Below the pieces are notes generated by a model, which was not told where the DNA came from, ran no database searches, and worked only from the letters and a program-made list of their open reading frames with translations. Shown one piece after another: positions 7,423 through 43,495 of a stretch of DNA of 64,000 nt. The stretch spans positions 384,001 to 448,000 of the forward strand of contig JAXGZN010000001.1 in assembly GCA_040776945.1 (NCBI GenBank), written 5' to 3'. This DNA is from Methanomassiliicoccaceae archaeon. Lineage in GTDB: Archaea; Thermoplasmatota; Thermoplasmata; Methanomassiliicoccales; Methanomassiliicoccaceae. The translations under genes and the position numbers were made by a program. Each line of letters starts with the position of its first letter. Position 1 is the first letter of the stretch.

Positions 7423-7561
7423 AGGCCTGGATGGGGACGGCCGACCTTGATCGCGCATTAATAAGCATAGAGCATGAAAACAATGAATAGGAAGAACAGA
7501 GCTTTAGCCCCTGGCCTGCGCGACGAGTACCAGGCACGACGGCGCCTTTGAGGGGACCACG

Positions 7562-8683
7562 ATGGACTTTGACGGGCTCGAGGAGACGATGGCCGGTGGA
7601 TGGAGGCAGTTCATCAGCGATGGCGAGGGTCCCATCACCACGAACGACAACGCCTATGAGCTATGCGCCGAGCTCATTGACGGAGGGTCCGCCTTCTTCA
7701 AGGTGATCAGTAAGTACGATGACGTGCTGGCGGACATACTGCAGAGGCCGAACTATAAGGCTGGAGATACTCTGCGCCTCATACTTCCGTTCCTCAAGGC
7801 ATATGGTGCGACAGACACATGGCTTCTCGAGTTCTCAAGGAAGAACATAGTGACGGTGCCTGGAGCCAGGAAGACCATGCGCTTTGTCCAGGAGTTCATG
7901 ACTCCTTTCATAGTGGCCACCTCGTACGAGCACTACATGAGCGCGGTGTGCGACGCCATCGGCTTCCCGCTGGAGAACACCTATAGCACCGCTTTGGAAC
8001 TGGACTCGGTGAAGATGGAGACGTGGGAGGCCGATCTGCTGAAGCGCTGCGCACACGAGATAGCCAGGATGGGCGAGATCAAGGTGCCCGATGGAGCGAG
8101 GAACATCGATGATCTCAAGGCACGGGACCGTGATCTCATCGCGCGCCTTGATGAGATATTCTGGGAAGAGCTTACCGACCTTGCTTCATACCAGCTGGTC
8201 CTTGACGTTAACCCCGTAGGGGGAGAGGAGAAGGCATCGGCGGTACTGGACATCCGCCGGAGGACGGGGATAGGTCTTGAGGACACCGCCTACGTGGGCG
8301 ACTCGATAACTGACGTTCAGGCGTTCCAACTGGTGCGTGAAGGCGGAGGCCTCACGCTGTCATTCAACGGCAACGAGTATGCGCTGCGGGAGGCGGAGTT
8401 CGCGGTAATCTCTGACAATACCGTGATAACCTCGGTGCTGGCCGAGGCCTTCCACAAGGCCGGTATGGAAGGCATCTGCTCCTTGGTCGATGACTGGAAC
8501 CTCGACGGGCTAAGATCCTCTGGATTAGTTAACTCATACCTGATGAGGGAGTTCGAGAGGACCTATCCGGAGAAGCTGCCTACGGTAGCGAGGATAACCC
8601 CTCATAACATGAAGTCGCTTACCAGACAGAGCCTGGCCTTCCGTCGCTCGGTGCGAGGGGAGACCATCGGAGCCCTTGGATGA
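7562..8683 (+). CDS. HAD-superfamily hydrolase, EhaR/COG4030-like
   Basis: FISDGEGPITTNDNAYEL (motif I-like), YVGDSITD (motif IV), SFNGNEYA. The start may instead be ATG 7589. Confidence 0.72.
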   Translation: MDFDGLEETMAGGWRQFISDGEGPITTNDNAYELCAELIDGGSAFFKVISKYDDVLADILQRPNYKAGDTLRLILPFLKAYGATDTWLLEFSRKNIVTVPGARKTMRFVQEFMTPFIVATSYEHYMSAVCDAIGFPLENTYSTALELDSVKMETWEADLLKRCAHEIARMGEIKVPDGARNIDDLKARDRDLIARLDEIFWEELTDLASYQLVLDVNPVGGEEKASAVLDIRRRTGIGLEDTAYVGDSITDVQAFQLVREGGGLTLSFNGNEYALREAEFAVISDNTVITSVLAEAFHKAGMEGICSLVDDWNLDGLRSSGLVNSYLMREFERTYPEKLPTVARITPHNMKSLTRQSLAFRRSVRGETIGALG

Positions 8684-9070
8684 TCATAGGGCGCGGTCGA
8701 TGGCGTCGGTCATCATTTTTGCGAAACTTATCCATTCTTCCTCTTTGATGTCCGGGAACATGAACTTGGCACAGCTCTCGCACTTCCCCAGTTCTCGTTC
8801 CACCGCGTCGTCGAGAACGACGCTTACCTTGGGTACCATCCCCGCCCTCTTAAGTATGAGCTCAGAGCACCGGTTGCGGCAACCGCTTACTGCCACCAGA
8901 TGTTCCGGGTCTCCTCCGCTCATCCTTACCAGGATGGGCGATGCAGCTACGGTGCAAGCACTTATCTGAATGATGCGCTCGAAGTTCTCCCTTGCGAACT
9001 TCTCTACTGCCTTTTCGATTATGAGGGAGCGCTCGCCGTTCGCCCCGCAGACGACCACCATCACCCTCAT
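8684..9070 (-). CDS. DGC-like putative zinc/Fe-S-binding protein
   Basis: Cys pattern VVVCG...SAC...VAVSGCRNRCS plus an extra CESC. ATGA-coupled to the upstream gene. Confidence 0.65.
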   Translation of the reverse strand: MRVMVVVCGANGERSLIIEKAVEKFARENFERIIQISACTVAASPILVRMSGGDPEHLVAVSGCRNRCSELILKRAGMVPKVSVVLDDAVERELGKCESCAKFMFPDIKEEEWISFAKMMTDAIDRAL

Positions 9071-9417
9071 GCGCCCATCTCCTGCAAGCTGGCAAGTATC
9101 TTGTTCTCGGCCGCCGAGACCGAGCGCTCATCAACTACGGCTGTCTTGTCGATTATCACCGTCTTCATAGGGATGAGTCCATGCATCATTAGTGTCTGCG
9201 TACCACAACATCCGTCACATCCCTCTACGACGATGGTGCGATTTGGGTCAAGGGACCTCAGTTCCTCGATGTACTTGTTAAGGCCAGCTCCCGCCGGGCA
9301 GGGCGTGTGGACCCGGATGTCCTTCTTCTCCGACACCCGCCGCAGTGCCTGGCGGACCACTCTGGCAGACGGAGAGAAACCTGCGCATATGAGAATATTG
9401 ATCGTTGCCACGCTCAT
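9067..9417 (-). CDS. DGC-like putative zinc/Fe-S-binding protein
   Basis: ILICAG...PCPAG...IVVEGCDGCCG pattern. ATGA overlap with the hydantoinase-like gene stop. Confidence 0.7.
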   Translation of the reverse strand: MSVATINILICAGFSPSARVVRQALRRVSEKKDIRVHTPCPAGAGLNKYIEELRSLDPNRTIVVEGCDGCCGTQTLMMHGLIPMKTVIIDKTAVVDERSVSAAENKILASLQEMGA

Positions 9418-11444
9418 CCCTCGAAGAACAGGCGGGGCTTGCCGACGCCGGTCACGGTGATAACTACCTCTAAGAGTATGCTTCCCCCCCAACCTCCGCT
9501 GAGCTTGGCCTCCTTTCGTTTTTCATCTATTATCACCTCAGCACTGTCGGCCCCAGAGGCAAGAGCCATCTCCTTGACCAGCCTGCCACCCTCCGCCTTG
9601 GCATACGCAATGGCATCGTCCATGTGCTCGAAGTCCCTCTTTTCCTGCATCCAATATAGAGTGCATGGAGGGTTCTCCATTTCTGCCAATCCTTTCTTTG
9701 GTCGTATGAGAAGATCTATGGATTCCATGACGTTGCCTGATATCGCCCCGGCAGCATTGCCTATCTCCGAGTTCTCGGGAAGCACCAGACTGGTCCCGAA
9801 TATCTTGGCCACCGTTGGGAGGTATGCTCCCACTGGTGCACCGATGCCTATGATCGGCTTGTTCAGCGCCAGATGGCAAGCGAAGTCCCGACGCCCGGTC
9901 CCTCGGACCATATTGTTCATAAGGGATGTCGCAACCTCGTCCAACTTGGCCTCTCCGACCTCCTCGAACACCAGTTTCCTCAGCACCTCGAAGGTGATCT
10001 TCTCGATGGCCGCTGTCTTTACAGAATCGATGAACTCGGTGACCGGTATCCCAAGAATCTCGGCCTGGACCTGTACTCCGAACTTGGAGGCTTCGGGGTC
10101 ATACTCGACGTAAGAGCCTTCGGCGTGCAGCATATCGGTCGGTGTGAGGCCGATGCGCTGTATGATGCCTAGACCCTCCATCTTCCTTAGGTTAAGTGAG
10201 AGCGGGTGCACGTTCAGGGCCTCCGCCAGCTCGTACAGCGACATGGGCTCCTCCTTTAAGAGGTCAAGAACCCTCCTTTGTTCTTCCCCGAGGTCGTGGC
10301 CGTTGGCCTCCCTGGAGAAGGTGAAGAACTCAGTAACCTGAGGGACGGTGTCAAGGTCCATGTAAGAGGGAGTCCATCGACCCTTGCTTCCGATGAGCGC
10401 TTGCAACTTGGGCCTAAGACTAGGGAAGCTGGAGGATGCAATGCATAGCGGCATTACCCTAAGGGCGCTGATCTGTATCTTCCCGCTGGCGACCACCACT
10501 CGAGAGTCGCCTCCGATGCCGGAAGTGAAGATATCCACTGCCCTCACCCTTGTGCGCCATCCGCCCAGCATTGCTCCTTCAGCGTCAAGGCGGGGTCGCC
10601 CGCCCCTCAGGATGCCTATGTCGGTGGTCGTGCCTCCAACGTCGACGATAATAGCATCATCAAGGCTGGTCAGCGCCTTCGCGCCGATGATCGAGGCTGC
10701 CGGCCCTGAAAGGATTGTCTCGACCGGACGTTCCTTGGCCACAGATTCGTCCATGAGGGAACCGTCCCCTTTGACAATCATCAAAGGAGCTTTTATGCCA
10801 AGACGGTCTCGGACGTTCTTGATCGAAGCTATTAGATCTGTTATTATGGGTATCAGGCGAGCGTTTAGCACAGCGGTGATCGTCCGCTCATGGAAACCTA
10901 GGGCCGATGAGAGTTCGTGACCGCACACGACCGGGTAGGGAGCTAGCGACTTCACAAGCTCCCTGACTGCGATCTCATGCTCCGGGTTCCTGACGCTCAG
11001 ATAGCTAGATATGGCGAAGGCATCAACCTTGTCCTTCACAGAACACACGAACTCCCTAGCGCCATCCAGGTCCAGCTCGTTCTTCCTGACCCCTTCTAAG
11101 TTATGGCCCCCTCTCAGCTGGACGATCTCGTCCACTGGTATATTGGGAACAGCTTCATGTCCTATGACGATAAGCCCGACCCGGCAGCCCTTGCCTTCCA
11201 CCACCGAGTTGGTAGCGAGGGTCGAGGACACTGCCAATAGGCGCACCCTATCGAAGAGGGACTTGTCCAGAGCGGAGATGGCCTTGCCGATCCCGATAGT
11301 AAGGTTCTCACGAGTGGTCAGGGACTTTGCCTTGGTCAATACCGCACCGCTCGCCATGTTCAGGATAGCGGCGTCTGTATAGGTGCCGCCGGTATCGATC
11401 CCCAATCCCAGGTTGATCTCGCCTTCGTTGCTTGAAGCTTTCAT
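9414..11444 (-). CDS. Hydantoinase A/oxoprolinase family ATPase (copy 2)
   Basis: LGIDTGGTYTD, SSTLATNSVVEG, ERTITAVLNA, ETILSGPAAS, VDVGGTTTDI, GIGGDS, GNAAGA. Confidence 0.9.
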   Translation of the reverse strand: MKASSNEGEINLGLGIDTGGTYTDAAILNMASGAVLTKAKSLTTRENLTIGIGKAISALDKSLFDRVRLLAVSSTLATNSVVEGKGCRVGLIVIGHEAVPNIPVDEIVQLRGGHNLEGVRKNELDLDGAREFVCSVKDKVDAFAISSYLSVRNPEHEIAVRELVKSLAPYPVVCGHELSSALGFHERTITAVLNARLIPIITDLIASIKNVRDRLGIKAPLMIVKGDGSLMDESVAKERPVETILSGPAASIIGAKALTSLDDAIIVDVGGTTTDIGILRGGRPRLDAEGAMLGGWRTRVRAVDIFTSGIGGDSRVVVASGKIQISALRVMPLCIASSSFPSLRPKLQALIGSKGRWTPSYMDLDTVPQVTEFFTFSREANGHDLGEEQRRVLDLLKEEPMSLYELAEALNVHPLSLNLRKMEGLGIIQRIGLTPTDMLHAEGSYVEYDPEASKFGVQVQAEILGIPVTEFIDSVKTAAIEKITFEVLRKLVFEEVGEAKLDEVATSLMNNMVRGTGRRDFACHLALNKPIIGIGAPVGAYLPTVAKIFGTSLVLPENSEIGNAAGAISGNVMESIDLLIRPKKGLAEMENPPCTLYWMQEKRDFEHMDDAIAYAKAEGGRLVKEMALASGADSAEVIIDEKRKEAKLSGGWGGSILLEVVITVTGVGKPRLFFEG

Positions 11445-11525
11445 TGTTCCCACGTCCGTCTGGTCCTCTCCTCTATCGGCTTAAGTTCTTGGACTAACGT
11501 ACCGGCCAAAGGCCGGCACTTCGCC

Positions 11526-13472
11526 CTATAGTTTGATCTTGGGCCTCCCCGTCGCCGTGGCGGTCAGGTCCACCCAGTTGGTGAACTTCATCTCTTGTCC
11601 ATATCCATCACAGAAGCGATGCTCGTCCACGTCAAGCTTGACCGATACATCGACAGCCCCGGTCCTCTTTATCCGCTCCTTGACAAAGTACTCGGCATAG
11701 GATTTTCCGGCCGCGAGCGCGGAGTCGTAGGTGGAATATTCCATGGGAGATGATCCTGGTCCGAACACTACGTACTTGAACTCCTTGGGAAAGATGCGAA
11801 CGGTCGCGGTCTCCGTCACCTGGCTCAGCACTGCGCCTACAGCGTTGCCCACATCATGGTTAGGAGGTATGATGACCGGACATCCCAGCCGGGCCTCCAA
11901 CGGCTTCACCATGACATCTACAGGAGCGCCAACGCCGACGATGGGCACTTTGGGCGTCGCTACGACCTTTAGGTCCTTCAGAATTCCCGATCCGGCGGTC
12001 GAGCGCAGCAGGAGGTCGAAGCCACTGGAATCCGGAATGTCGCCGCCCGCATCGATCAGCCCTTTTTTGACGATCTCCTCAGCGATACGAGTGATCGATA
12101 GCTCCATGATCATATCGGACAGCTTGCCAGGCTCGTCACCGTATTTTCCAGCGAAGACCCTGAGGGCGATCTCCGACGCTTCCTTGTTCCCCCCGGGGAA
12201 CATGCCCTTGACATGCATGATGTCAGTAGGTGTGAGCCCTGTCTGAAGTATGTACCCTCTATTGCGCAATGATTTCAATTGGTCTTCGACGAAGACCACG
12301 TCGTGGACGTTGTTGATCGCCTCGAAGAGCGTACAGTCGCCGCGCTCCCAAACGAACCGTAGAACGCTCTTCTCCTTCTCTGACAGGGCGGCGGTCTCCT
12401 TCCTCACCGGCATAAAGAAGGTGAGAGTGTTCTCCGACATCATCCGCTCCTTGATACCAGGACGTTCCTTTGTTGCTATTGCCAGGGGCAGCACCCGGTC
12501 CGGGCCGAGCCTGAGGTTGCCCTTATCGTCCATGCTTACGCTGGAATCACCGCCCAATCCAGCTGTCCAGATATCAATAGCACGGACCCTGGTCCTCCAC
12601 TTTCCGACCATGGACCCTTCCATGTTCAGCCTGGGGAACCCATCCTGGAGATATGCGATGTCCGTCGACGTTCCCCCTACATCGACCACAAGGCAGCTGT
12701 CTAGACCGGAGATGGCACGGCCGCCCATTAGACTTGCCGCCGGGCCGGAGAGCACGGTATCGACCGGACGCTCTTTAGCCACCGGCAGGCTCATCAGGCC
12801 GCCATCTCCCTTGAACACATATATAGATGCATCGATGCCCCTGGATATGAGGGAGCGCTCCATAGAGTCCAGGAAATCGTTGATCACAGGCAACAGTTTA
12901 GCATTGAGGACGGCGGTCACCGTGCGCTCGTAGATGCCAAGCTCCGCTGTCAGGTCGTGCCCCATGACCACGGGCAAGTTATACTTGGATTGAACCAGAC
13001 CTTTGGCCGAGGCCTCCTGGATGGGATTGGCCACACTGAACATTCCAGATATGACAACGGCGTCCATCTCGCGGCAGATGTCGTCAACGGCCTCCTCCAG
13101 GCCCTTCTCGTCGAGAGGTTCGATCATCTTGCCCATGGAATCGTAGCCGCCTCTGATGAATGCGGAGCGTTTGGCCTCAAAGGACCAGTCCGCCTGGGGG
13201 GTCCACCCTATCCCTATAAGGCCGACGTCCCCTCCCCTTCCCTGCAGAATAGCATTGGTGGCCAGAGTGGTGGAGAGACCGACCAATTTGATATCCCCTG
13301 GGTTGACCCCGTTGCCCTTCACCGCCGCGTCGATAGCGCCGATGATGCCTATGGAGAGGTCGTGATAGGTGGTGCGGGCCTTGGCCTTGACCAGCACTTT
13401 TTTTGTGTCCAGATCTACGATCGCGGCATCGGTGAACGTTCCACCGGTATCAACACCAAGTCCTAGTGTCAT
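11526..13472 (-). CDS. Hydantoinase A/oxoprolinase family ATPase (copy 1)
   Basis: LGVDTGGTFTD, STTLATNAIL, DTVLSGPAAS, VDVGGTSTDI, GLGGDS, GNAVGA. Confidence 0.9.
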   Translation of the reverse strand: MTLGLGVDTGGTFTDAAIVDLDTKKVLVKAKARTTYHDLSIGIIGAIDAAVKGNGVNPGDIKLVGLSTTLATNAILQGRGGDVGLIGIGWTPQADWSFEAKRSAFIRGGYDSMGKMIEPLDEKGLEEAVDDICREMDAVVISGMFSVANPIQEASAKGLVQSKYNLPVVMGHDLTAELGIYERTVTAVLNAKLLPVINDFLDSMERSLISRGIDASIYVFKGDGGLMSLPVAKERPVDTVLSGPAASLMGGRAISGLDSCLVVDVGGTSTDIAYLQDGFPRLNMEGSMVGKWRTRVRAIDIWTAGLGGDSSVSMDDKGNLRLGPDRVLPLAIATKERPGIKERMMSENTLTFFMPVRKETAALSEKEKSVLRFVWERGDCTLFEAINNVHDVVFVEDQLKSLRNRGYILQTGLTPTDIMHVKGMFPGGNKEASEIALRVFAGKYGDEPGKLSDMIMELSITRIAEEIVKKGLIDAGGDIPDSSGFDLLLRSTAGSGILKDLKVVATPKVPIVGVGAPVDVMVKPLEARLGCPVIIPPNHDVGNAVGAVLSQVTETATVRIFPKEFKYVVFGPGSSPMEYSTYDSALAAGKSYAEYFVKERIKRTGAVDVSVKLDVDEHRFCDGYGQEMKFTNWVDLTATATGRPKIKL

Positions 13473-13565
13473 GATATGTCTTCCTTACAGCTACACTGGA
13501 ATAACTAAAAAGGGATTATGTTGGCCCCGAATAATTATGTCTAAAAAACGACAATCGAACGTAGA

Positions 13566-13588
13566 CCAATATTGGCGGCAATATTGGC
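13566..13588. promoter_or_regulatory. Candidate operator: tandem CAATATTGGC repeats in a divergent promoter region
   Basis: CAATATTGGC at 13567-13576 and 13579-13588; the first lies within the perfect palindrome CCAATATTGG (13566-13575). Confidence 0.45.
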
Positions 13589-13650
13589 TTGAACCGGACC
13601 TCGGTCCCAGAAAGGATAACTAAGGGTGTTTCCATCTAGGGCCTGTCCAC

Positions 13651-14283
13651 ATGATGGAAGCCGAGTTCTCCATCCGAGGGCTGTGTTTTTGGATCTCGGA
13701 TTTCGCCGCCGAGAGATCCTGCACAGTGACCATTACGGAGTGTATCCCCTGGAGGAAGAAAGGAGGGCAGGCCCTGTTCGAGATCAATGGACTGGAGGCC
13801 GATATTGAGAGTGCTATGAGCGACGTACGGGCAAGGCCGGAGATCGTAAGCCTGGAGGTCGTGGAATCTTCCGAGGGGCGAGTGGTCGGCTCGGTGGCAG
13901 TGCGTGAGCTCTGGATAATATGGGCCATCGTGGATTGTGGCTGCTTCCTTGAATCAGCCTGGTCTAGTGGGGACAACAAGGTGTATTTCAAGGTGCTATC
14001 GGGGAGCGAGGGTTCACTGCCCAATCTGATCAAGACCATATCGTCCCGCGGAGCAGATATCGAGATCAATCGCATTGCACGAGCGGTCGATCGTCCGGTG
14101 GTCACCCGGAAGCAGGAGAAGGTTCTGAGACTCGCGCTGGAGAGGGGTTTCTTTGATTTTCCTCGTAAGGTAACCCTGGAAGAACTGGCTCTGATGTCAG
14201 GGATGTCCACCTCAACGGTGGCCGAGACCATCAAACGGGGGGAGCGGAACATTCTCAAGAGCTTTTTCGAGAAGAGAAGATGA
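13651..14283 (+). CDS. Bacterio-opsin activator-type (HTH_10) transcriptional regulator
   Basis: C-terminal VTRKQEKVLRLALERGFFDFPRKVTLEELA..GMSTSTVAETIKRGERNI is the HTH_10 consensus. Confidence 0.88.
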   Translation: MMEAEFSIRGLCFWISDFAAERSCTVTITECIPWRKKGGQALFEINGLEADIESAMSDVRARPEIVSLEVVESSEGRVVGSVAVRELWIIWAIVDCGCFLESAWSSGDNKVYFKVLSGSEGSLPNLIKTISSRGADIEINRIARAVDRPVVTRKQEKVLRLALERGFFDFPRKVTLEELALMSGMSTSTVAETIKRGERNILKSFFEKRR

Positions 14284-14486
14284 GGGACGGGCAGAAAGAT
14301 CGATAGGCCGTAATGGCCCGCTGTCAGCGGGCCGCCCCGTATGACCCTCTTGTGTTCCCTGGTCGATCTGCCCGTCGAGCTCATTAAAGAGATCGGCGCT
14401 CAGATCATCTCGTTACAGCTAATATCTCTGATTAGAAACGAGCATTTGCTGACCAATACGAGGAGCCTGCTCATCTTGCCTAACGC

Positions 14487-14960
14487 TCATCCTCCATGGT
14501 GGGCCATGCCCTTCTCTGTTTCATAGTAGTCTTTGATTATTTCATAATTCAGTCCATGCTTTTTGAAGACCGTCTCGATTGCCTCAAGGCTTTGTTCCCT
14601 TACTTCTGGGTCCCAGATGCCGTGTACGATTACGTGCAAGGTAAGTTCAGCATCCTGGAAGGTCGCCTCATGACCAAAGTCGTGCGTTATGTTCGGCCCT
14701 TTGCCCAGATCGATGAGGCTAGCGGACATCGCGCCGTTCGAGGCCTTCAGGAAAGCCTTGACATGGCCGACCAGATCAGCGCCGTGGTCCATGCATCGCT
14801 TTGTGATCACTGAGAGGAGCTCCCCCAAAGCGGCGGCCGCCTCGTCACGGGTCATGGTTTTTGGAGCGTGGATCATCATGTGGGTGGCGAACTTGCCTAG
14901 TTCATCTGCCTCTCGATGCATCTCGATGTGTATGTCCTCGTCGATATCTCCCATGCTCAA
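14487..14960 (-). CDS. His-rich partner of the COG0523 GTPase (CobW C-terminal-like, putative metal-binding)
   Basis: Overlaps the GTPase stop. Motifs DEDIHIEMH, LVGHVKAF, LHVIVHGI and C-terminal MAHHGG. Confidence 0.65.
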   Translation of the reverse strand: MSMGDIDEDIHIEMHREADELGKFATHMMIHAPKTMTRDEAAAALGELLSVITKRCMDHGADLVGHVKAFLKASNGAMSASLIDLGKGPNITHDFGHEATFQDAELTLHVIVHGIWDPEVREQSLEAIETVFKKHGLNYEIIKDYYETEKGMAHHGG

Positions 14961-15625
14961 CCGCTCCCGTACTGCTGCCGTAGGAGTTCGCGCTCCACCG
15001 CTTCATCGTACCTCGATGATGACCTTTCCGCAATTATTTGGGCCACCTCCTTCACTCCCATTCCTTTATGGGTGGAGATCCTCATGATCTCACACTTAGG
15101 ATTGATCTCCTTGACCAGATCCTCCGAGCGTTTGATGCGCCCCTCGTCCGAGGCGTCGACCTTGTTGATTAGGCAGACATCCGCCTCCCGTATCTGAGTT
15201 ACCACGAGCCTGCGCACAGTGCCCAGTAATGCATCGATCCGTGTCGAGTCTACCAGTGTCAGAACAGGCGCGTGATCGATCGTCACTGGCACCTCGGCCT
15301 CGGAATACTCGGCCGCTCGCTTCAGACCCCATGGTATAGCAACGCCTGATGGTTCAACGATGACGATATCTGGATTAAAGCTCGTATAGAGCAGCGCTAG
15401 AGTATTGGCGAAATTGCCGGCGATCTCGCAGCATATGCATCCGCCGGACATTTCCCTGGCTTTGAGACCATAGGAATCTACGATCTTGAAATCGACATTG
15501 ATCTCGCCTACATCGTTGACCACGATTGCGATGCGCTTCCCCCTGGTCACCAGTTCTTTGGCGACCTCGATAAGCAGCGTGGTCTTGCCGCTGCCCAAAA
15601 AGCCTGCGATCTGTGCGATCTTCAT
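14957..15625 (-). CDS. CobW/HypB/UreG-family (COG0523) metallochaperone GTPase
   Basis: GFLGSGKTT Walker A, VNDVGE, GGCICCE metal motif, VEPSG Walker B, NKVD. Confidence 0.9.
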   Translation of the reverse strand: MKIAQIAGFLGSGKTTLLIEVAKELVTRGKRIAIVVNDVGEINVDFKIVDSYGLKAREMSGGCICCEIAGNFANTLALLYTSFNPDIVIVEPSGVAIPWGLKRAAEYSEAEVPVTIDHAPVLTLVDSTRIDALLGTVRRLVVTQIREADVCLINKVDASDEGRIKRSEDLVKEINPKCEIMRISTHKGMGVKEVAQIIAERSSSRYDEAVERELLRQQYGSG

Positions 15626-15801
15626 GGCACCACTTTCTCGTGATATGGCCTACACAGTATAAAGATAGTTTGAGAAATCGACATTCTGGAAGGAAGGACC
15701 CATTATCAATAGAGAATTTGAACATGGAGATCATGTGGGCATGAACAATGATGCCTGGCATCATTTGCCCGTGATCTTGGCCAGATGTTGGGCTTCTTTC
15801 A

Positions 15802-16608
15802 TTACGGGCCTCTTTCGCCGAAGAAACCCCTCAGGCAAGAATGAAGGAGGCCTTGTGATACTTCCTCGATGCCTCCGGGCGGCAGATCGCCTAGAACGAA
15901 CGGACCATACTCCACCCGGATAAGGCGCATCACCTTCAGCCCGAGGAAGGCCATGATGTTGCGTACCTCACGGTTCTTGCCCTCCCTGATAGAGACGATC
16001 AACCAATGGTCGTTCCCTTTTCCATCCCTCTCTATTTCAATATTTATGGGTCCATACCTGATGCCCGCAATGGTCACGCCTCCCTTGAGCGGTTCTAGTT
16101 TTTTGCGGTCCACGGTCCCCCTGACGCGCACCTTGTAGCGCCTTAACCAGGCATTCTGTGGCAGCTCAAGGTATCGCTCCAGTTCCCCATCGTTGGTGAG
16201 GAGCAGAAGCCCTTCGGTGTTGAAATCGAGGCGCCCGACGCTCATTACGCGCGGCATCCCGGAAGGTAATCTATCAAAAACGGTCGGGCGCCCCCCAGGG
16301 TCCCTCATCGCAGTTATCGTACCAGTCGGTTTATGATATCGCCATAATCGAGTTCTTTCAGCCCTCTGTAAAGGCCTCCCGTCGATCGTTATGACGTCCC
16401 CGTACATTACGTTCAGTACCGGCGATGTCAACACCGATCCGTTAACGGTGACGCGGCCATCCGCGATCATCCTCTCAGCGTCTCGGCGCGAGCAGACGCC
16501 AGCCCTAGCGATCACCTTGGCGACCCTCTCGCCCGCAGAGGAAGTTTTTTCTCCCGAGCTTACGGTCTCACACGAACAAGGCCCTTCCACATGATGGCGC
16601 ATTGACAT
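15802..16608 (-). CDS. rluB: RsuA/RluB-family rRNA pseudouridine synthase (bacterial type, S4 domain)
   Basis: ERVAKVIARAGVCSRRDAE S4 domain, YHKPTG, VGRLDFNTEGLLLLTNDG, EGKNREVR, LIRVEYG. Confidence 0.88.
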   Translation of the reverse strand: MSMRHHVEGPCSCETVSSGEKTSSAGERVAKVIARAGVCSRRDAERMIADGRVTVNGSVLTSPVLNVMYGDVITIDGRPLQRAERTRLWRYHKPTGTITAMRDPGGRPTVFDRLPSGMPRVMSVGRLDFNTEGLLLLTNDGELERYLELPQNAWLRRYKVRVRGTVDRKKLEPLKGGVTIAGIRYGPINIEIERDGKGNDHWLIVSIREGKNREVRNIMAFLGLKVMRLIRVEYGPFVLGDLPPGGIEEVSQGLLHSCLRGFFGERGP

Positions 16609-16716
16609 GCCCTCGTAATATGCCTCCTATTGAGCATCCGCGACCGGTTTCATGAAACTAGTCCTGCTTTAAGGTTGCCGAAAAAGAGCGCATCGTTTAA
16701 GATATTTGAAAAAACG

Positions 16717-17370
16717 TCATCTCCTCTTGCGGTTGAGCGACGCCCTGACCAATGCAACAGCCTCCTGAGCGCTCACGGCATGAAGGTCCGCGCCGATCTC
16801 ATCGGCGAACTCCTTTGATGTTGGAGGTCCACCTATCATTATCAAGGTATTGGACCTAACGCCGTCCTCCACGAGCGCATCCACCGTCGTCTTCATTGAA
16901 TCCATGGTCGGAGTCATCAGAGTGCTCATGGCGACGATTGACGCCTTCGATAGCTTGGCCTCACGGACAAATGTATCCTCGGGCTGGTCCTTACCTAGGT
17001 CGCGAACGTCATAGCCGGCGGCCACCATCATGGCCCGCACGATGTTCTTTCCAATGTCGTGGACGTCACCCTCAACGACGCCGATGACGATGACCGCCCG
17101 TTCCGATGCTGCTTCCACGGACAGATGGGGGAGCAGGAGGTTAAGCGCCGCATACATCGCATCAGCGGCGAGAAGCACCTGGGGCAAAAAAATCTTGTGG
17201 CGGGAGTAACGGTCCCCGATGATGTTCATGCCTTTTATGAGTCCGCTGTCTATGGCCTCCATTGCACTCAGACCGTGGCGTATGGCGTTATTGGCATGGC
17301 GTATGGCATCCTCCTTCTTGCCTGAAACTACTGCGTGCTCGAGCCCGGCGAGGATGCGCGCCTTGTCCAT
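16717..17370 (-). CDS. Methyltransferase cognate corrinoid protein (MtaC/MtbC-like), copy 2
   Basis: GVVEGDVHDIGKNIV (DxHxxG), STLMTPTM, IMIGGPPTS; N-terminal cap FLPQVLLAADAM. Confidence 0.93.
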   Translation of the reverse strand: MDKARILAGLEHAVVSGKKEDAIRHANNAIRHGLSAMEAIDSGLIKGMNIIGDRYSRHKIFLPQVLLAADAMYAALNLLLPHLSVEAASERAVIVIGVVEGDVHDIGKNIVRAMMVAAGYDVRDLGKDQPEDTFVREAKLSKASIVAMSTLMTPTMDSMKTTVDALVEDGVRSNTLIMIGGPPTSKEFADEIGADLHAVSAQEAVALVRASLNRKRR

Positions 17371-17770
17371 GTTCCACCTTCCTGACAAGGACTTGATGGG
17401 AATGACCTGGTCCTGTCCGGTCGATGGATGAGGATTTCAATATTAATCCTTGGCACGGAAATGGGTGACCGATTCCGGACAGTGGACGGTCGAACGGCAA
17501 TGAACGTCAAGAGGGAAGCAAATAACATCGACCTATCTTGAGGCGCTCTTGTTCTCTGAAGGCTTATTATCTGACTTCACGGGCCAATGGACGCCTTAAC
17601 TACAAGCCCGTGTTCGTAAGCGCCTGATTAGACTGCCGTCGCATGGCCGACAGGGCTGCCTTAACGCATCTTATCGACTACGGCCGATATGCGGGTTCGT
17701 GAACGGGGAAAATTGGCAGTGGCATCCACCAAGGCCGATAACGTCAATAATGATAGGAAGTGTGCGGCGT

Positions 17771-18796
17771 TCAGAGAGCCATGTATGTCGCGTCGCGCAG
17801 AGCCAGAATATTGTCCAAAGGAGTATCGAACGGAAGCTCACATGCAGGCGCCAAGATCGATGCGTGGTCCTCGTTGTGCAAGGAACGTGCCCTTGAGACC
17901 TCGGCCCTTATCTGCTCCGGAGTTCCGCTATAGATCAGTGCGCGATGATCTATGCCAGCAACGATGCGGGTTCCGCCAAGACGCCCCCTGGCCTCATCGT
18001 ACCCGCTCCAATTCACTGGAATATGCATTGCTTCCGGGCGATACGCTTCTATCTCTTCCAGGATGTACGGCGATTCAGAGCAGTTGTGTACGATCACCTT
18101 CATCCCTTCGCCGTGGATGGTCTTGATCACAACACCGGTATGGTCTAGGTCGAATTCCCGGCAAAGCCCCAGCATGTTCTGGTCAGCATCCGCTAGCGCG
18201 TCGCTGATGAATATCACATCGACCCCAGAGACCGCTGCAAGATGTTTCACTTGCATTTTTTGCGAATCGGTTATTGTTCGAAGGAGCTTGTGCGCAAGGT
18301 CTGGTTCGACCATCTGAGCGATGAGGAGGTTTTCATAACCTATCACGCTCCCGGCGATTATGAACGGTGAACTCATGCCTCCGAGCACAGGGACCTCCTT
18401 CCCAATGGCAACGTTCATCATGGTAGCTGCTTTCAGGGGCACCGACCATTGTGGGTGCGATAAGGGATCGATAGGCTCAAGAAGTTCAACTTCCTCGAGA
18501 TGTATCGGTGTTTCTTTAGGATAGCGAACATCGCTTGAGAAGTGCAGGACCGCACCGAATGCGTTGGCCTCCATCAACAGGTCGCCCCAGCCGGCCATTA
18601 CGTTATCGTAACCGAACACCTTATGGGAGGCTAGGGATAGACGCGCGAACTTATGTGGATCGCAGAACGCCTCTCTCAAGCTCAGCCCAGTTCGCTCGAT
18701 GAGGTGTTGTGCTCCGCCAAGATGTTGGTACATCACTTGAGGCCGCTCTATCGGTTCCCCGTCCAACGCTGCCAAGAACATGTCCTTCGTGTTCAT
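17771..18796 (-). CDS. MtaA/CmuA (UroD-fold) methylcobamide methyltransferase family protein, divergent
   Basis: EANAFGA, Zn ligands IVHNCS and ILAPACELP. Confidence 0.82.
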   Translation of the reverse strand: MNTKDMFLAALDGEPIERPQVMYQHLGGAQHLIERTGLSLREAFCDPHKFARLSLASHKVFGYDNVMAGWGDLLMEANAFGAVLHFSSDVRYPKETPIHLEEVELLEPIDPLSHPQWSVPLKAATMMNVAIGKEVPVLGGMSSPFIIAGSVIGYENLLIAQMVEPDLAHKLLRTITDSQKMQVKHLAAVSGVDVIFISDALADADQNMLGLCREFDLDHTGVVIKTIHGEGMKVIVHNCSESPYILEEIEAYRPEAMHIPVNWSGYDEARGRLGGTRIVAGIDHRALIYSGTPEQIRAEVSRARSLHNEDHASILAPACELPFDTPLDNILALRDATYMAL

Positions 18797-18946
18797 TGAT
18801 CAACCATCCCTCCGTAGAGAACGGAACTCTTTTTCCAATGTTCATATCGAGGGCGTGCCATATCTCGTTGTTGTCGCTTTGACCCTCATCATATGTCGAT
18901 TGTCGGTGATTATTGATACCGCACCAAGCCACATCATGATCTGACC

Positions 18947-19270
18947 TTAACGGCTTTTTTTCCAGCCTTGCTCCCTTATATAATCATCAATTACGTTGGA
19001 CATGTGCGTCGACAGGTTGCGCTCATCATACTTGTTGCCAACATGGTCGACCGTCCGGATCAGGAACTCGTGGTCACATTTTGGGCACCTGGCCTTTGGG
19101 CATGACCTGACAGCTTCAGGACAGCCTCTGCACGCAAAGGTTCGACCATATGTCAACGAGAACTCGAATGAGCATTGAGGGCACTTGAACTTCTTGATCG
19201 CGCTCACCGTCTGCTCAGAGAAACCGTGCTCCCTCATTGCCCTCAAATAACTTGGATCGATATTGCTCAT
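18947..19270 (-). CDS. Small Cys-rich protein (CxxC x3, zinc-ribbon/Fe-S-like)
   Basis: FKCPQC...FACRGCPEAVRSC...RCPKCDHEF; SD-like GGGAG upstream. Confidence 0.75.
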   Translation of the reverse strand: MSNIDPSYLRAMREHGFSEQTVSAIKKFKCPQCSFEFSLTYGRTFACRGCPEAVRSCPKARCPKCDHEFLIRTVDHVGNKYDERNLSTHMSNVIDDYIREQGWKKSR

Positions 19271-19329
19271 GTGACTCCCTGCTGAACTTTCATGGTTTTA
19301 CGTTCGTTCCTTATCATCGCAAGTTGTAT

Positions 19330-19370
19330 AAAATAAAAAATGGGAACAGGAGGAGGGTTGCTCCCTCCTC
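19330..19370 (-). terminator. Hairpin plus U-tract terminator after the mtaA-like gene
   Basis: Minus strand GAGGAGGG-agcaa-CCCTCCTC then ctgttcccattttttatttt. Confidence 0.65.
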
Positions 19371-19403
19371 ATGCTCCAAAGCGTTCTATGACCGGCGTTC
19401 CGC

Positions 19404-20504
19404 TTACTTGCAGACGACCTGGCCATACTTTTTGACCGCATCCACCTGCGCCTTGATGTTCTCAAGCTTGGTGCTAACGCCAGGGGGTACTTCGCAGTTC
19501 GAAGCGATGCAGTACTTGGACTTCAACCCTCGAGCGCATAGTGCTGTTGAGACCTCGTGGCACAGGTCCATGGTGACCTTTTCCATCTTCTCCTTGCTCC
19601 AGCGCACATATCCCTGGGGGTCGATCGTTCCACACAGGACGCAGTTGTCCGCATATCCCTTCTCTATGCAAACCTTGGCCGATGGAGAGCCGGGGATAAG
19701 CGGATAATAGGCCATGGTGTACACATCCGGCTTCATCTCCTTGACCTGGGAGTCCATATGTGGCAGGTCGGCGCAATTGTGTATCGCTAGGGCCATACCC
19801 TCCTTGCGGACCAATTCGTTGAGACCTCCAGCATATTTGTGCTGACCCTCGAACTCATGATATTCCTTGTCACCCAGGCAGGAGTATGAACCCCATAGGT
19901 AGTCCCACATGCAGGCGTTGGGCTTTGCCGTACCCATTCTCTTCACCATTTCTCTGAGGTACTCAGTAAAGACTGCCAGTGCCTTGTGGACAGCGGAGGG
20001 GTTGTTATACAAGTCCATTAGGACCTTCTCTGCCCCTGCACACTGGGTTAGGGACAGCAGCGGACCCTCCAGAAATCCCGATGTGATGGTCTCGGTCTTC
20101 AGAGCCTCCGAGAACAACCTCGTGCCTTCCACGATGACACCCGATCGGCCTTTTGATGGGTCGGGCATCTGGAGCTTCTCATAGTCCTCCGTGCTTTTTA
20201 TCACGGGAACATCCACGAAAGGAGTGTTTTGTTCATCCATGCGGACGTGTGCTCCAAAGTCGCCAGCGATGACCGAAAGGTCCATCAGGCCTATGGTGAA
20301 GTCCAGGTCGAAAGTCTTCTGTCCCTGGATAAACCCGGCAGCGAACTTCTTGGGGTCTGTAGCCCAATCCCTATATAGCATCGTGCCGTCTCCGACCGTT
20401 CGGCGGCTGACACCACAGGCGATGGGATAGGTGGTAAGCCGGTCCACCGGCTCATCTTTCAGAGATGCAACTACTCTCTCCTGGTGAGTCATTTTGTCTG
20501 CCAT
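19404..20504 (-). CDS. MtaA/CmuA (UroD-fold) methylcobamide methyltransferase family protein
   Basis: MTHQERVVASLKDEPVDR N-terminus, DLSVIAGDFGA, EGPLLSL, Zn ligands AIHNCA and IASNCEVP. Confidence 0.88.
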   Translation of the reverse strand: MADKMTHQERVVASLKDEPVDRLTTYPIACGVSRRTVGDGTMLYRDWATDPKKFAAGFIQGQKTFDLDFTIGLMDLSVIAGDFGAHVRMDEQNTPFVDVPVIKSTEDYEKLQMPDPSKGRSGVIVEGTRLFSEALKTETITSGFLEGPLLSLTQCAGAEKVLMDLYNNPSAVHKALAVFTEYLREMVKRMGTAKPNACMWDYLWGSYSCLGDKEYHEFEGQHKYAGGLNELVRKEGMALAIHNCADLPHMDSQVKEMKPDVYTMAYYPLIPGSPSAKVCIEKGYADNCVLCGTIDPQGYVRWSKEKMEKVTMDLCHEVSTALCARGLKSKYCIASNCEVPPGVSTKLENIKAQVDAVKKYGQVVCK

Positions 20505-20516
20505 GTTTTTTCCTCC

Positions 20517-21158
20517 TTATATTGAGGCCTTTACTTTGGCCACGGCCTCCTGGGCGTTCACGGCGTGAAGGTCCGCACCGATCTCTTCGGCGAACTCTTG
20601 GGAAGTGGGCGCGCCGCCAATTATGATCCTTAACTGAGCACGGAGGCCCTCCTCCACCATTGCGTCCACGGTGGCCTTCATCGAGTCCATGGTAGGGGTC
20701 ATCAGGGTGCTCATCGCAAGGACCTGTGCGTTGTTCGCCCTGGTGGTTGTGACGAAGGTGTCGGCCGGAACGTCCCTTCCGACGTCATGCACATTGAAGC
20801 CAGCGGCGGTGAACATGGTCTTCACGATGTTCTTTCCAATATCGTGGACATCCCCCTCAACAACGCCGATGACCATGTCTACCCTTTTCGCCGCTGCCTC
20901 CCTGGGAATGTGGGGCAGCAAAATGTCCAGAGCGCTGTACATCGCGTCAGCGGCGAGCAATACCTGAGGCAGGAAGATGGTGTGAGCAGCGTACTTCTCA
21001 CCAATGATCATCATCCCCTTGATCAGGCCCGAGTCAATCGCGTCGAGCGGCTTCACGCCACTGGAAATGACCTCATTGGCAATCTTGGCGGCATCCGCTT
21101 TTTTTCCGTTTACAACAGCTTGCTCCAATCCTGTCAGTATTTGGTCTTTTTTCGACAT
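20517..21158 (-). CDS. Methyltransferase cognate corrinoid protein (MtaC/MtbC-like), copy 1
   Basis: GVVEGDVHDIGKNIV, STLMTPTM, IIIGGAPTS. Confidence 0.93.
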   Translation of the reverse strand: MSKKDQILTGLEQAVVNGKKADAAKIANEVISSGVKPLDAIDSGLIKGMMIIGEKYAAHTIFLPQVLLAADAMYSALDILLPHIPREAAAKRVDMVIGVVEGDVHDIGKNIVKTMFTAAGFNVHDVGRDVPADTFVTTTRANNAQVLAMSTLMTPTMDSMKATVDAMVEEGLRAQLRIIIGGAPTSQEFAEEIGADLHAVNAQEAVAKVKASI

Positions 21159-43458: not shown

Positions 43459-43495
43459 GCCTTCCCTCGTTGAAATAAAGGAGGGGATCTGGCCC

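What the first reader, a model, noticed from the sequence alone, without database searches (positions are those of the whole stretch)
8684..21158. Candidate undescribed corrinoid methyl-transfer system with no known substrate-specific MT1
Seen: a co-oriented minus-strand set of corrinoid protein, MtaA-like, 7-Cys protein, MtaA-like, corrinoid protein, (RluB), COG0523 GTPase plus His-rich partner, a divergent HTH-10 regulator, two hydantoinase-A-like ATPases and two DGC-type proteins. Known: methylotrophic methanogenesis needs an MT1 (MtaB, MtmB, MtbB, MttB), a corrinoid protein, an MT2 (MtaA) and a RamA-type activator; UroD-fold enzymes can serve as MT1 for methyl sulfides and halides (MtsA, MtpA, CmuA). 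None of MtaB, MtmB, MtbB, MttB or RamA is present in this window. Inference: one or both UroD-fold proteins demethylate an unknown substrate, with dedicated metal-loading and ATP-dependent accessory proteins, i.e. possibly a new methanogenesis substrate module.
Basis: partly seen in the sequence, partly recalled or inferred. Interest (0 to 1): 0.88.

Follow-up and report, generated by a model that had tools for sequence, protein, structure and literature searches.

The report
Methanogen corrinoid methyl-transfer gene cluster
This is a real, widely conserved and actively transcribed gene cluster of a methyl-reducing methanogen that carries methyl groups on vitamin-B12 proteins from a still unknown, probably sulfur-bound, donor, and it matters because that donor would be an uncounted source of methane.

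Summary
The genome is a Methanomassiliicoccales methanogen with McrA, MtmB, pyrrolysine genes and three RamA-like genes. It has no MtaB, MtbB or MttB.

The conserved core is smaller than the finding: corrinoid protein CP1, a 366-aa UroD-fold methyltransferase (UroD366) and a 7-Cys protein. A HyuA-like ATPase usually lies beside them, often with a COG0523 GTPase, a His-rich partner and two DGC proteins. This order recurs across three families of the order. The second UroD-fold gene (UroD341) is an insertion missing from same-genus relatives. RluB, HTH_10 and the second ATPase are genus-level additions.

Both UroD proteins keep the His-Cys-Cys zinc site typical of S-methyltransferases. Both lie outside the canonical MtaA clade. 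No Hydantoinase_B exists in the genome, so the N-methylhydantoin idea fails.

A palindrome upstream of CP1 recurs upstream of mcrB, atwA-mcrC and the MtaA-module corrinoid gene. RNA contigs from four sludge metatranscriptomes cover the cluster, deepest over CP1-UroD366-Cys7.

Best reading: an MtsA/MtsB-like methanogenic module for a non-DMS methylated thiol, with general accessory proteins. The substrate is unknown. It is a new variant of a known kind.

The parts
21259..21279 (.). Palindrome ATGGATGGA-GCA-TCCATCCAT (core TGGATGG-N5-CCATCC), 101-121 nt upstream of the CP1 start and followed by an A/T-rich TATA-like stretch. Candidate operator.
   Evidence: the exact core lies upstream of CP1 orthologues in 10 of 22 related loci; only 3 exact sites in the genome. 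The other two, plus a 1-mismatch site, lie beside methanogenesis genes.
20517..21158 (-). CP1, 213-aa corrinoid (B12) carrier protein with a DVHDIG His-on motif.
   Evidence: Adjacent to UroD366 orthologues in 21 of 24 copies. 89-92% identical in same-genus relatives.
19404..20504 (-). UroD366, a UroD-fold zinc methyltransferase of an uncharacterised clade. The candidate substrate:corrinoid (and possibly corrinoid:CoM) methyltransferase.
   Evidence: Pfam URO-D; 58 bits against a cut-off of 244. H242, C244 and C337 invariant in 26 sequences; found in 90 of 151 genomes of the order; own clade.
18947..19270 (-). Cys7, a 107-aa protein with seven invariant Cys (CxxC-x13-CxxC-x6-C-x4-CxxC). Zinc-ribbon-like partner co-distributed with UroD366.
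   Evidence: invariant Cys. One search read: co-distribution; no family.
17771..18796 (-). UroD341, a second UroD-fold zinc methyltransferase (His-Cys-Cys). An insertion specific to this genome and few others.
   Evidence: 42 homologues; absent from same-genus relatives; best non-self identity 56%; zinc triad.
16717..17388 (-). CP2, 223-aa corrinoid protein, 65% identical to CP1, with a DVHDIG motif.
   Evidence: Present in same-genus relatives directly after UroD366.
15802..16608 (-). RluB/RsuA-type pseudouridine synthase, a probable bystander.
   Evidence: Near only 2 of 24 UroD366 copies, both in the same genus.
14957..15625 (-). COG0523 G3E GTPase (GTPase domain only) with Walker A GFLGSGKT and a CICC metal motif.
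   Evidence: Near 15 of 24 UroD366 copies. Paralogous pairs occur with other modules.
14487..14960 (-). His-rich 157-aa partner. It overlaps the COG0523 stop by 4 nt, ends in AHH, and some orthologues carry His/Asp-rich N-termini.
   Evidence: AF2 pLDDT 86 with a generic alpha/beta sandwich.
13651..14283 (+). HTH_10 (BAT-like) transcription regulator, divergent from HydA2. A genus-level addition.
   Evidence: Seen in 2 of 24 copies.
11526..13472 (-). HydA2, a HyuA-type ASKHA ATPase paralogue. 35% identical to HydA1 and 48% to the copy in the MtaA modules of another family.
9414..11453 (-). HydA1, a HyuA-type ASKHA ATPase with no HyuB partner in the genome. It recurs beside corrinoid proteins.
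9067..9492 (-). DGC-domain protein 2 (motif EGCDGCCG). The true start is probably later than the TTG listed.
   Evidence: Only two DGC genes exist in the genome.
8684..9070 (-). DGC-domain protein 1.
7562..8683 (+). 373-aa weakly HAD-like protein. A conserved neighbour of the HyuA-like gene in two families. Link to the module uncertain.
   Evidence: HAD E 2.7e-4, below cut-off.

Best explanation
The region is the Methanomassiliicoccales version of an MtsA/MtsB-type corrinoid methyl-transfer module that feeds methanogenesis.

Shown: CP1 (and its duplicate CP2) are His-on corrinoid carriers. UroD366 is a zinc (His-Cys-Cys) UroD-fold methyltransferase of its own clade. It is always paired with CP1, and nearly always with a small 7-Cys protein.

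Inferred: UroD366 takes a methyl group from a sulfur-bound donor. Candidates are methanethiol, a methylthio-carboxylate or a similar thioether, and probably not dimethyl sulfide. It passes the methyl to Co(I)-CP1. The methyl then goes to coenzyme M, either by UroD366 itself (as MtsA does) or by the canonical MtaA encoded elsewhere.

Inferred roles of the other genes: the COG0523 GTPase with its His-rich partner loads the zinc site. The HyuA-like ATPase, with DGC proteins in the larger genomes, is a general ATP-dependent helper of corrinoid proteins. It is not a hydantoinase. UroD341 is a recently inserted extra S-type methyltransferase that probably uses CP2. The operon is driven from a promoter with a palindromic operator shared with mcrBDGA and atwA-mcrC, which puts it in the methanogenesis regulon.
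For: - Domains and motifs. The zinc triad is invariant in 26 UroD366-family sequences. It is kept in UroD341 and in 11 of 11 homologues checked.
- Zinc-site rule: His-Cys-Cys marks S/Se-methyltransferases, whereas O-demethylases carry a carboxylate or no ligand. This is from the results section of PMC10418091.
- Spread: UroD366 matches occur in 90 of 151 genomes of the order at E<=1e-20. By my reading of that table, 77 are at E<=1e-100.
- Neighbours of the 24 copies examined: CP adjacent in 21, Cys7 in 20, HydA in 20, COG0523 in 15, His-rich in 14, DGC pair in 9.
- Small genomes: one of 1.5 Mb has only 3 URO-D genes, two MtaA-like plus the UroD366 orthologue. A single UroD enzyme with one CP is therefore the minimal module, as in MtsA/MtsB.
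- Tree: the UroD366 clade has 99% SH-aLRT. A 97% branch separates it from the side holding canonical MtaA and UroD341.
- Operator: 3 exact genome sites, upstream of CP1, upstream of the CP of the MtaA module, and between a DUF2111/DUF4443 gene and atwA-mcrC. A 1-mismatch palindromic site lies 85-100 nt upstream of mcrB. At up to 1 mismatch there are 17 strand hits against 2 for the reversed control. Two other genomes also have sites upstream of mcrB and CP1, and a third has sites at CP1 and near atwA.
- RNA: contigs of 4 sludge metatranscriptome runs match at 99% or more. Summed contig depth is 21-84 over 18957-21424, against 0-13 in every other bin of 6000-24500. Contigs bridge UroD366/CP1 and Cys7/UroD366.
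- Literature: Methanomassiliicoccales MAGs in a mire preferentially express methyl-sulfide genes (PMC10805028, passage). COG0523 subfamily 13 co-localises with corrinoid methyltransferases (PMC2770081, passage).
Against: - No substrate is shown, and nothing here tests activity.
- If this family is what papers call MtsAB, then M. alvi Mx-05 carries it yet made no methane from DMS + H2 (PMC10673518).
- I could not prove that equivalence. The one M. luminyensis accession returned (WP_147654316.1) is not among the four mtsA/mtsB accessions of Table S10 of PMC4153887. That table also lists none for 'Ca. M. intestinalis'.
- I had no M. barkeri MtsA, MtbA, MtpA, CmuA or MtoA sequence to place in the tree.
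- The accessory genes are not specific. HydA homologues are in 142 of 151 genomes, including genomes without UroD366, where some sit among housekeeping genes. A Cys7 paralogue is in 146 of 151.
- HydA coexists with RamA in other modules, so it is not a simple RamA substitute. It has no Fe-S motif.
- The exact palindrome is missing from all 9 small-genome-family loci, where only a half-site is visible by eye. It is also missing from a same-genus genome that lacks UroD366.
- Contig depth is a poor measure of expression, and the four RNA runs may be one campaign.
Confidence: 0.5

Rival explanations
1. UroD366 is only a CP1-specific MT2 (methyl-CP1:CoM). The true substrate demethylase is a non-UroD protein encoded elsewhere or not yet recognised. 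Cys7 or the HyuA-like protein might be part of it.
For: The His-Cys-Cys site is exactly that of CoM methylases. Cys7 is strictly co-distributed with UroD366 and has no known family. The HyuA fold is used elsewhere for ATP-dependent activation of small inert substrates.
Against: The genome already has a canonical MtaA. The minimal conserved unit holds no other enzyme-sized gene. MtsA shows that one UroD enzyme can do both half-reactions (cited in PMC4153887 and PMC5011839).
Confidence: 0.15
2. The module is not catabolic. It demethylates methylated sulfur, selenium or arsenic compounds for assimilation or detoxification, like the Sdm/type-1 mlp clusters.
For: Type-1 mlp clusters pair UroD-like proteins with a CP and act on methyl-selenide or methyl-sulfide (PMC10418091). 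The best NCBIfam hit of the COG0523 protein is 'CobW-related selenoprotein', at 119 bits and below the cut-off of 180. The module is patchy within genera, as accessory traits are.
Against: The operator is shared with mcrB, atwA-mcrC and the MtaA-module CP. RNA contig depth is high. The cluster lacks the Ram/RACE gene of type-1 mlp clusters. No selenocysteine use is known to me in this order (recalled, not tested).
Confidence: 0.12
3. The HyuA-like ATPase, the DGC proteins and the HAD-like neighbour form a separate function, an ATP-dependent transformation of a small molecule. They merely sit beside the methyltransferase genes by descent.
For: HydA homologues are nearly universal and occur without UroD366. 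In some small genomes they lie among housekeeping genes, once directly after a HAD hydrolase. In two families HydA-DGC2-DGC1 is a separate, convergent transcription unit preceded by the HAD-like gene.
Against: HydA paralogues lie beside corrinoid-binding proteins in several contexts: CP1; the CP-HydA pair left in same-genus genomes that lack UroD366; MtrA-MtrH; the MtaA + CP + RamA modules of another family; and two RamA-adjacent loci. In one genome a 1-mismatch copy of the palindrome lies about 90 nt upstream of HydA.
Confidence: 0.25
4. One reading: the hydantoinase-A-like ATPases prepare N-methylhydantoin, creatinine or a similar cyclic amide as the methyl donor.
For: Sequence and fold similarity to N-methylhydantoinase, caprolactamase and acetone/acetophenone carboxylase A-type subunits.
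Against: No Hydantoinase_B (PF02538) was found anywhere in the 99.84%-complete genome, while the control genomes ring. All solved relatives work with a B-type catalytic subunit or domain (recalled knowledge of those enzymes). The zinc site of both UroD proteins is of the S-type, not the N- or O-type.
Confidence: 0.03

Closest known systems
MtsA/MtsB methylthiol:CoM methyltransferase of Methanosarcina barkeri, and the related MtpA/MtpC system for methylmercaptopropionate
   Same: One UroD-fold zinc methyltransferase is paired with one small His-on corrinoid protein and needs no MtaB/MttB-type MT1. The zinc site is His-Cys-Cys. Papers on this order label such CP + UroD pairs as MtsAB homologues.
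   Different: Sequence kinship to M. barkeri MtsA could not be tested. UroD366 scores far below all NCBIfam MtaA/MtbA/CmuA models. It finds no solved structure by sequence and forms its own clade. It comes with a 7-Cys protein and a HyuA-like ATPase that are not part of the Methanosarcina systems as far as I recall. DMS was not used by a cultured carrier of MtsAB homologues.
Type-1 mlp gene clusters / SdmABC of Methanococcus voltae (Kountz and Balskus preprint, PMC10418091)
   Same: Several UroD-fold paralogues with His-Cys-Cys sites lie around a corrinoid protein. Neither cluster contains a H4folate- or H4MPT-methylase gene. A methyl-S or methyl-Se donor is proposed.
   Different: Those clusters carry a Ram/RACE activase and Mlp2 + Mlp3 clades. 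Here no Ram gene is in the cluster, and the paper does not mention Methanomassiliicoccales, hydantoinase, COG0523 or DGC. Clade membership was not tested.
MtaABC/RamM clusters with COG0523 subfamily 13 in Methanosarcina (Haas et al. 2009, PMC2770081)
   Same: A COG0523 GTPase is co-localised with zinc-dependent corrinoid methyltransferases. Walker A and the CxCC motif are present.
   Different: Here the GTPase lacks a fused C-terminal domain and is followed by a separate His-rich ORF. There is no MtaB.
A-type (HyuA) subunits of N-methylhydantoinase, caprolactamase and acetone/acetophenone carboxylase
   Same: Full-length fold match: Foldseek E 1e-23 to 5e-26, TM 0.55-0.63. Profile hits to the same entries. 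ASKHA phosphate-binding motifs are invariant.
   Different: No B-type partner exists in the genome. Only half of the Pfam Hydantoinase_A profile is matched. The genomic partners are corrinoid proteins.
RamA/RACo reductive activases of corrinoid proteins
   Same: An ASKHA ATPase encoded beside a corrinoid protein.
   Different: HydA1 has no RACo Pfam domains and no Fe-S Cys motif. The RACo structures match only at TM 0.20. True RamA genes exist elsewhere in the genome and sit next to HydA paralogues in relatives.

Membership tests
MtaA / MtbA methylcobamide:CoM methyltransferases (NCBIfam NF040654, NF041608, PRK06252, TIGR01463) | Score above the curated cut-off of the family model | tested here: not met
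   UroD366 scores 58 bits to PRK06252 (cut-off 244), 48 to TIGR01463 (235), 39 to the MtbA model NF041608 (600) and 26.5 to the MtaA model NF040654 (400). UroD341 scores 125.5, 106, 72 and 113 against the same four cut-offs. The genome's C2:493076-494074 protein passes PRK06252 and TIGR01463.
UroD-superfamily corrinoid methyltransferases, S-type | URO-D fold plus a His-x-Cys ... Cys zinc triad | tested here: met
   The triad is invariant in 26 UroD366-family sequences, and is present in UroD341 and 11 of 11 homologues.
MtsA (methylthiol:CoM methyltransferase) | Closest characterised relative is M. barkeri MtsA, and the enzyme catalyses both half-reactions with MtsB | not testable with these tools
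   No tool gave me a reference MtsA sequence, and no NCBIfam model for MtsA appeared among the hits. The accession comparison with Table S10 of PMC4153887 did not match.
Methyltransferase-cognate corrinoid proteins (MtxC type) | B12-binding_2 cap plus a B12-binding Rossmann domain with DxHxxG | tested here: met
   The TIGR02370 score is 206.9 for CP1 and 197.1 for CP2, just under the cut-off of 215.3.
COG0523 metallochaperone GTPases | cobW GTPase domain with Walker A and a CxCC motif | tested here: met
COG0523 metallochaperone GTPases | C-terminal CobW_C domain (here possibly supplied by the His-rich ORF) | tested here: inconclusive
   No Pfam hit. The AF2 model is a common alpha/beta sandwich with best VIA Z 8.2 to an unrelated entry. 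YjiA appears only at Foldseek rank 22.
Hydantoinase/oxoprolinase/acetone-carboxylase enzymes | A-type ATPase subunit or domain | tested here: met
Hydantoinase/oxoprolinase/acetone-carboxylase enzymes | B-type (Hydantoinase_B) catalytic subunit or domain | tested here: not met
   no match in the genome, while 6 control genomes ring.
RamA/RACo corrinoid reductive activases | RACo_C_ter ASKHA domain plus a ferredoxin-type Fe-S domain | tested here: not met
   no RACo domains in HydA1 or HydA2; no Cys cluster. TM 0.20.
Type-1 mlp gene cluster | Mlp2 + Mlp3 clade proteins with a CP and a Ram/RACE gene in one cluster | tested here: inconclusive
   No Ram gene lies in the cluster. Clade membership was not tested because no Mlp reference sequences were available.
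DGC-domain proteins (PF08859) | Pfam score above the gathering cut-off | tested here: met
   41.8 and 28.7 bits against a cut-off of 27.

The most novel reading that the evidence does not exclude
The CP1-UroD366-Cys7 operon encodes a route from a methyl donor not yet on the list of methanogenic substrates: a non-DMS methylated sulfur compound, or another soft-atom methyl compound. The route is wired into the same operator-controlled regulon as methyl-coenzyme M reductase. The HyuA-like ATPases without a B subunit, with DGC or 7-Cys metal proteins, would be a new class of ATP-dependent maintenance factors for corrinoid proteins, working beside RamA.
Probability: 0.25. Interest if true: 0.8.

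Novelty: new variant of a known kind. Interest (0 to 1): 0.55.

Why it matters
Methanomassiliicoccales are major methyl-reducing methanogens of guts, digesters and wetlands. Their known substrates are methanol and methylamines. The module occurs in more than half of the genomes sampled. RNA contigs from sludge metatranscriptomes cover it more deeply than its flanking genes. It also appears to be co-regulated with methyl-coenzyme M reductase.

This particular genome lacks MtaB, MtbB and MttB, so UroD-type modules may account for much of its methane. Naming the donor would add a term to methane budgets. It would also settle what the 'MtsAB homologues' of this order do, after DMS gave no methane in one cultured strain.

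Two smaller leads follow. The recurring HyuA-like ATPase next to corrinoid proteins, and the shared palindrome, are testable entries into cofactor maintenance and gene regulation in an order with almost no genetics.

Tried and rejected
I sent HydA1 + Cys7 and then UroD366 + CP1 + Cys7. No binding claim is therefore tested.
- The search for related loci with a single protein gave only 2 loci. I used the genome search and the fetch from genomes instead.
- The sigma-70 promoter and terminator scan does not apply to an archaeon and was ignored.
- McrA is in 142 of 151 genomes of the order, so its presence cannot separate carriers from non-carriers.
- The His-rich protein fold search gave only a generic sandwich.
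- The Atlas gave no named relatives for UroD366 beyond 'URO-D family', and none for Cys7. A DUF7479 lead at 0.89 is below the useful level.
- PDB sequence search gave nothing for UroD366 and only MtaA 4AY7 at E 2e-21 for UroD341.
- A clean 'cassette swap' of UroD366 is not shown. DNA of CP1 + UroD366 aligns as one 72-73% block with same-genus relatives. Only 17480-19423 has no counterpart there. GC per gene is unremarkable, 0.50-0.57.
- Accession matching to the published mtsA/mtsB list failed.
- Paper searches that found nothing: Methanomassiliicoccus + hydantoinase + corrinoid; Methanomassiliicoccales + 'uroporphyrinogen decarboxylase' + methyltransferase; Methanomassiliicocc* + inverted repeat + promoter + methyl-coenzyme M reductase + transcription.

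Full report
**What is there.**
- On the minus strand lie CP1 (20517-21158), UroD366 (19404-20504) and a 107-aa protein with seven Cys (18947-19270).
- They are followed by UroD341 (17771-18796), CP2 (16717-17388) and an RluB-type pseudouridine synthase (15802-16608).
- Next come a COG0523 GTPase (14957-15625) and a His-rich ORF that overlaps its stop (14487-14960).
- Last on that strand are two Hydantoinase_A-type ORFs (11526-13472 and 9414-11453) and two DGC-domain ORFs (9067-9492 and 8684-9070).
- An HTH_10 regulator (13651-14283) lies on the plus strand.

Both corrinoid proteins carry DVHDIG. The GTPase has a Walker A motif and CICC.

**The genome.** The window lies in a 2.17-Mb, 99.84%-complete genome with McrA.
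- It holds 11 URO-D paralogues, 5 corrinoid proteins and 3 RACo/RamA-type genes.
- An MtmB gene lies beside a corrinoid protein, and beside genes that look like the pyrrolysine set.
- No MtaB, MttB or MtbB was found.
- Only one URO-D paralogue (C2:493076-494074) passes the MtaA-type subfamily cut-offs. It matches the solved MtaA 4AY7 at E 8e-68.
- Source names of homologues place the genome in the Methanomassiliicoccales.

**The conserved unit is smaller than the finding.**
- UroD366 has 279 homologues in the word-indexed search, and the 120 listed are all at least 59% identical.
- In a sample of 151 genomes of the order it has a match in 90 at E<=1e-20. By my reading of the table, 77 are at E<=1e-100, 5 are only fragments at contig ends, and 8 are only weak matches at 25-28% identity.
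- I fetched 20 regions around orthologues from three families and added the two loci.
- Of the 24 orthologue copies, 21 have a corrinoid gene within 300 nt. Twenty have the 7-Cys gene within 10 kb and 20 a HyuA-like gene. Fifteen have COG0523, 14 the His-rich gene and 9 the DGC pair.
- In the small-genome family the order is CP1-UroD366-Cys7-HydA on one strand.
- In the two larger-genome families it is CP1-UroD366-COG0523-HisRich-Cys7, facing a convergent HydA-DGC2-DGC1 unit.
- Two same-genus genomes share the window's whole order, including CP2, RluB, HTH_10 and the second ATPase, but they lack UroD341.
- At the DNA level only 17480-19423 (UroD341 and Cys7) has no counterpart there.
- UroD366 is 64-65% identical to theirs, while CP1 is 89-92%. 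Its best relatives, at 79%, are in another family. Some exchange is likely, but a clean swap is not shown.

**What the two UroD proteins are.**
- Both are far below the MtaA, MtbA and MtaA/CmuA cut-offs.
- Both keep the His-x-Cys ... Cys zinc triad. In the UroD366 family it is invariant over 26 sequences, including its nearest outside relatives. UroD341 and 11 of 11 homologues keep it too.
- According to the results section of PMC10418091, this triad marks S- or Se-methyltransferases of the superfamily. O-demethylases have a carboxylate or no ligand in place of a Cys.
- A search of 1.84 billion representatives found only 24 clusters at E<=1e-30.
- The nearest named ones outside the order are from a Freyarchaeota MAG (42%), Methanonatronarchaeum (32%) and a fused Coriobacteriales protein (27%). 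None has a functional name.
- In a 118-row quick tree the UroD366 clade has 99% SH-aLRT. A 97% branch divides it from the side that holds UroD341 with two paralogues of this genome (100%), four long paralogues (100%) and the canonical MtaA.
- I could not place MtsA, MtbA, MtpA, CmuA or MtoA, because no tool gave me those sequences.

**Relation to the literature.**
- Papers on this order list 'MtsAB' pairs (PMC4153887, passages and Table S10; PMC5011839, figure legend; PMC7824343, passage).
- M. alvi Mx-05 carries MtsAB homologues but made no methane from DMS + H2. The authors suggest other methylated thiols (PMC10673518, passages).
- Mire MAGs of the order preferentially express methyl-sulfide genes (PMC10805028, passage).
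- In small genomes the UroD366 orthologue is the only non-MtaA-like URO-D gene. It is therefore probably what those papers call MtsA.
- This is an inference only. The one M. luminyensis accession I could retrieve is not in Table S10.
- The COG0523 link to corrinoid methyltransferases is already in print (PMC2770081, passage).

**The accessory genes are general, not dedicated.**
- HydA homologues are in 142 of 151 genomes.
- Same-genus genomes that lack UroD366 keep a CP-HydA pair at the same chromosomal place.
- In this genome a third paralogue lies against MtrA-MtrH homologues.
- In another family a HydA2-like gene sits in a module of RamA, optional COG0523-HisRich, a UroD, MtaA, HydA and a CP.
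- In two other families HydA is adjacent to a RACo-type gene.
- In some small genomes it lies among housekeeping genes.
- The AF2 model (pLDDT 84.6) matches the A-type subunits of N-methylhydantoinase, caprolactamase and acetone/acetophenone carboxylase over its full length (profile hits).
- The genome has no Hydantoinase_B. HydA has no Fe-S motif.
- It is thus neither a hydantoinase nor a RamA. Its repeated place beside corrinoid-binding proteins is the only functional clue.

**Cys7.** The family splits into two groups.
- One group is weak (E 1e-14 to 1e-22) and is found in almost every genome.
- The other is strong (E<=1e-24). By my reading it occurs in 73 of the 77 genomes with a full UroD366, in 4 of the 5 with fragments, and in none of the 69 without an orthologue.
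- The E-value threshold was chosen after seeing the two groups.

**Regulation and expression.**
- A palindrome (core TGGATGG-N5-CCATCC) lies 101-121 nt upstream of CP1.
- The exact core lies upstream of CP1 orthologues in 10 of the 22 related loci. None of these is among the 9 loci of the small-genome family, where several show only the half-site ATCCATCCAT before a TATA-like box.
- The genome has three exact sites. One is at CP1. One lies 72-89 nt upstream of the corrinoid gene of the MtaA module. One lies between a DUF2111/DUF4443 gene and an ABC-ATPase + McrC-like pair that looks like atwA-mcrC.
- A palindromic one-mismatch site lies 85-100 nt upstream of mcrB. The reversed control gave 2 strand hits against 17.
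- Two further genomes have exact sites upstream of both mcrB and CP1. One of these also has a one-mismatch site about 90 nt upstream of HydA.
- A third genome has sites at CP1 and near atwA.
- A fourth has a site at CP1 only.
- A same-genus genome without UroD366 has no exact site.
- Twenty public runs hold the stretch, six of them RNA libraries.
- Contigs of four sludge metatranscriptomes match at 99% or more. Summed depth is 21-84 over 18957-21424, against 0-13 elsewhere in 6000-24500. Contigs bridge UroD366/CP1 and Cys7/UroD366.
- Contig depth is a weak measure, and the runs may be one campaign. The uneven profile does argue for RNA rather than carried-over DNA.

**Verdict.** The best reading (about 0.5) is an MtsA/MtsB-like methanogenic module. 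It would use a methylated thiol-type donor other than DMS and be co-regulated with MCR. A zinc chaperone pair and a HyuA-like ATPase serve it, and both also serve other corrinoid modules.
- UroD341 is a recent extra.
- RluB is a bystander.
- The substrate, the role of Cys7, the role of HydA and the identity with published 'MtsA' remain open.
- The complex prediction that might have assigned Cys7 a partner could not be run.

Noticed in passing
G000:C2:489342-489360, C2:500981-500999 and C2:508392-508409 (loci L021, L129): The same palindrome as upstream of CP1 lies upstream of three other places: the corrinoid gene of the MtaA module, mcrB (one mismatch), and the gap between a DUF2111/DUF4443/PH0730-like gene and an atwA-like ABC ATPase + McrC-like gene. 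This looks like a methanogenesis regulon. The DUF2111/DUF4443 gene, whose start the site overlaps, is a candidate regulator.
   Followed up: partly
G000:C2:489431-497498 (locus L021 5431-13498): This module holds a corrinoid protein, the canonical MtaA, a divergent UroD paralogue whose zinc ligands read His-Asp-Ser (an O-type pattern by the rule quoted from PMC10418091) and a RamA. The genome has no MtaB. Relatives in another family have His-Asp-Cys or His-Cys-Cys at the same place, plus HydA and COG0523-HisRich in the module. It is a possible O-methyl (methoxy-type) module.
   Followed up: partly
window 40016-41613: A third URO-D gene in the window (374 aa, 40489-41613) is preceded by a DUF6951 protein. 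It belongs to a group of four long paralogues in the genome. No corrinoid gene is adjacent.
   Followed up: no
G000:C2:39256-42690 (locus L027 5256-8690): Another long URO-D paralogue is followed by a DUF7479 protein and a radical-SAM protein with an HMPTM zinc ribbon. The genome's second, near-universal Cys7 paralogue follows on the opposite strand.
   Followed up: no
G000:C1:328714-332336 (locus L097 2714-6336): MtrA-like and MtrH-like genes lie next to a third HyuA-like ATPase. This is in an order described as lacking the CO2-reduction C1 pathway (PMC4153887 passage; Pfam).
   Followed up: no
G000:C2:912541-913610 (locus L099 6541-7610): A second COG0523 GTPase (201 aa) is followed by a 154-aa His-rich-type paralogue. 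No methyltransferase gene lies among the ORFs I scanned around it.
   Followed up: no
G000:C2:365800-371500 (locus L023 9833-15431): ATP-grasp, radical-SAM and class-II tRNA-synthetase-like genes resemble pylC, pylB and pylS. They lie beside a corrinoid protein and the C-terminal half of MtmB. The MtmB reading frame is broken upstream, as expected for an in-frame amber codon. I did not read it through.
   Followed up: no
window 7562-8683 and locus L088 8373-9050: A HAD-like protein is the conserved neighbour of the HyuA-like ATPase in two families. An unrelated clear HAD hydrolase directly precedes HydA in a small genome that lacks UroD366. This may point to a phosphorylated substrate for HydA.
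   Followed up: no
window 42946-44566: An AmiS/UreI-type channel lies next to a carbon-nitrogen hydrolase, an amide-uptake and hydrolysis pair.
   Followed up: no
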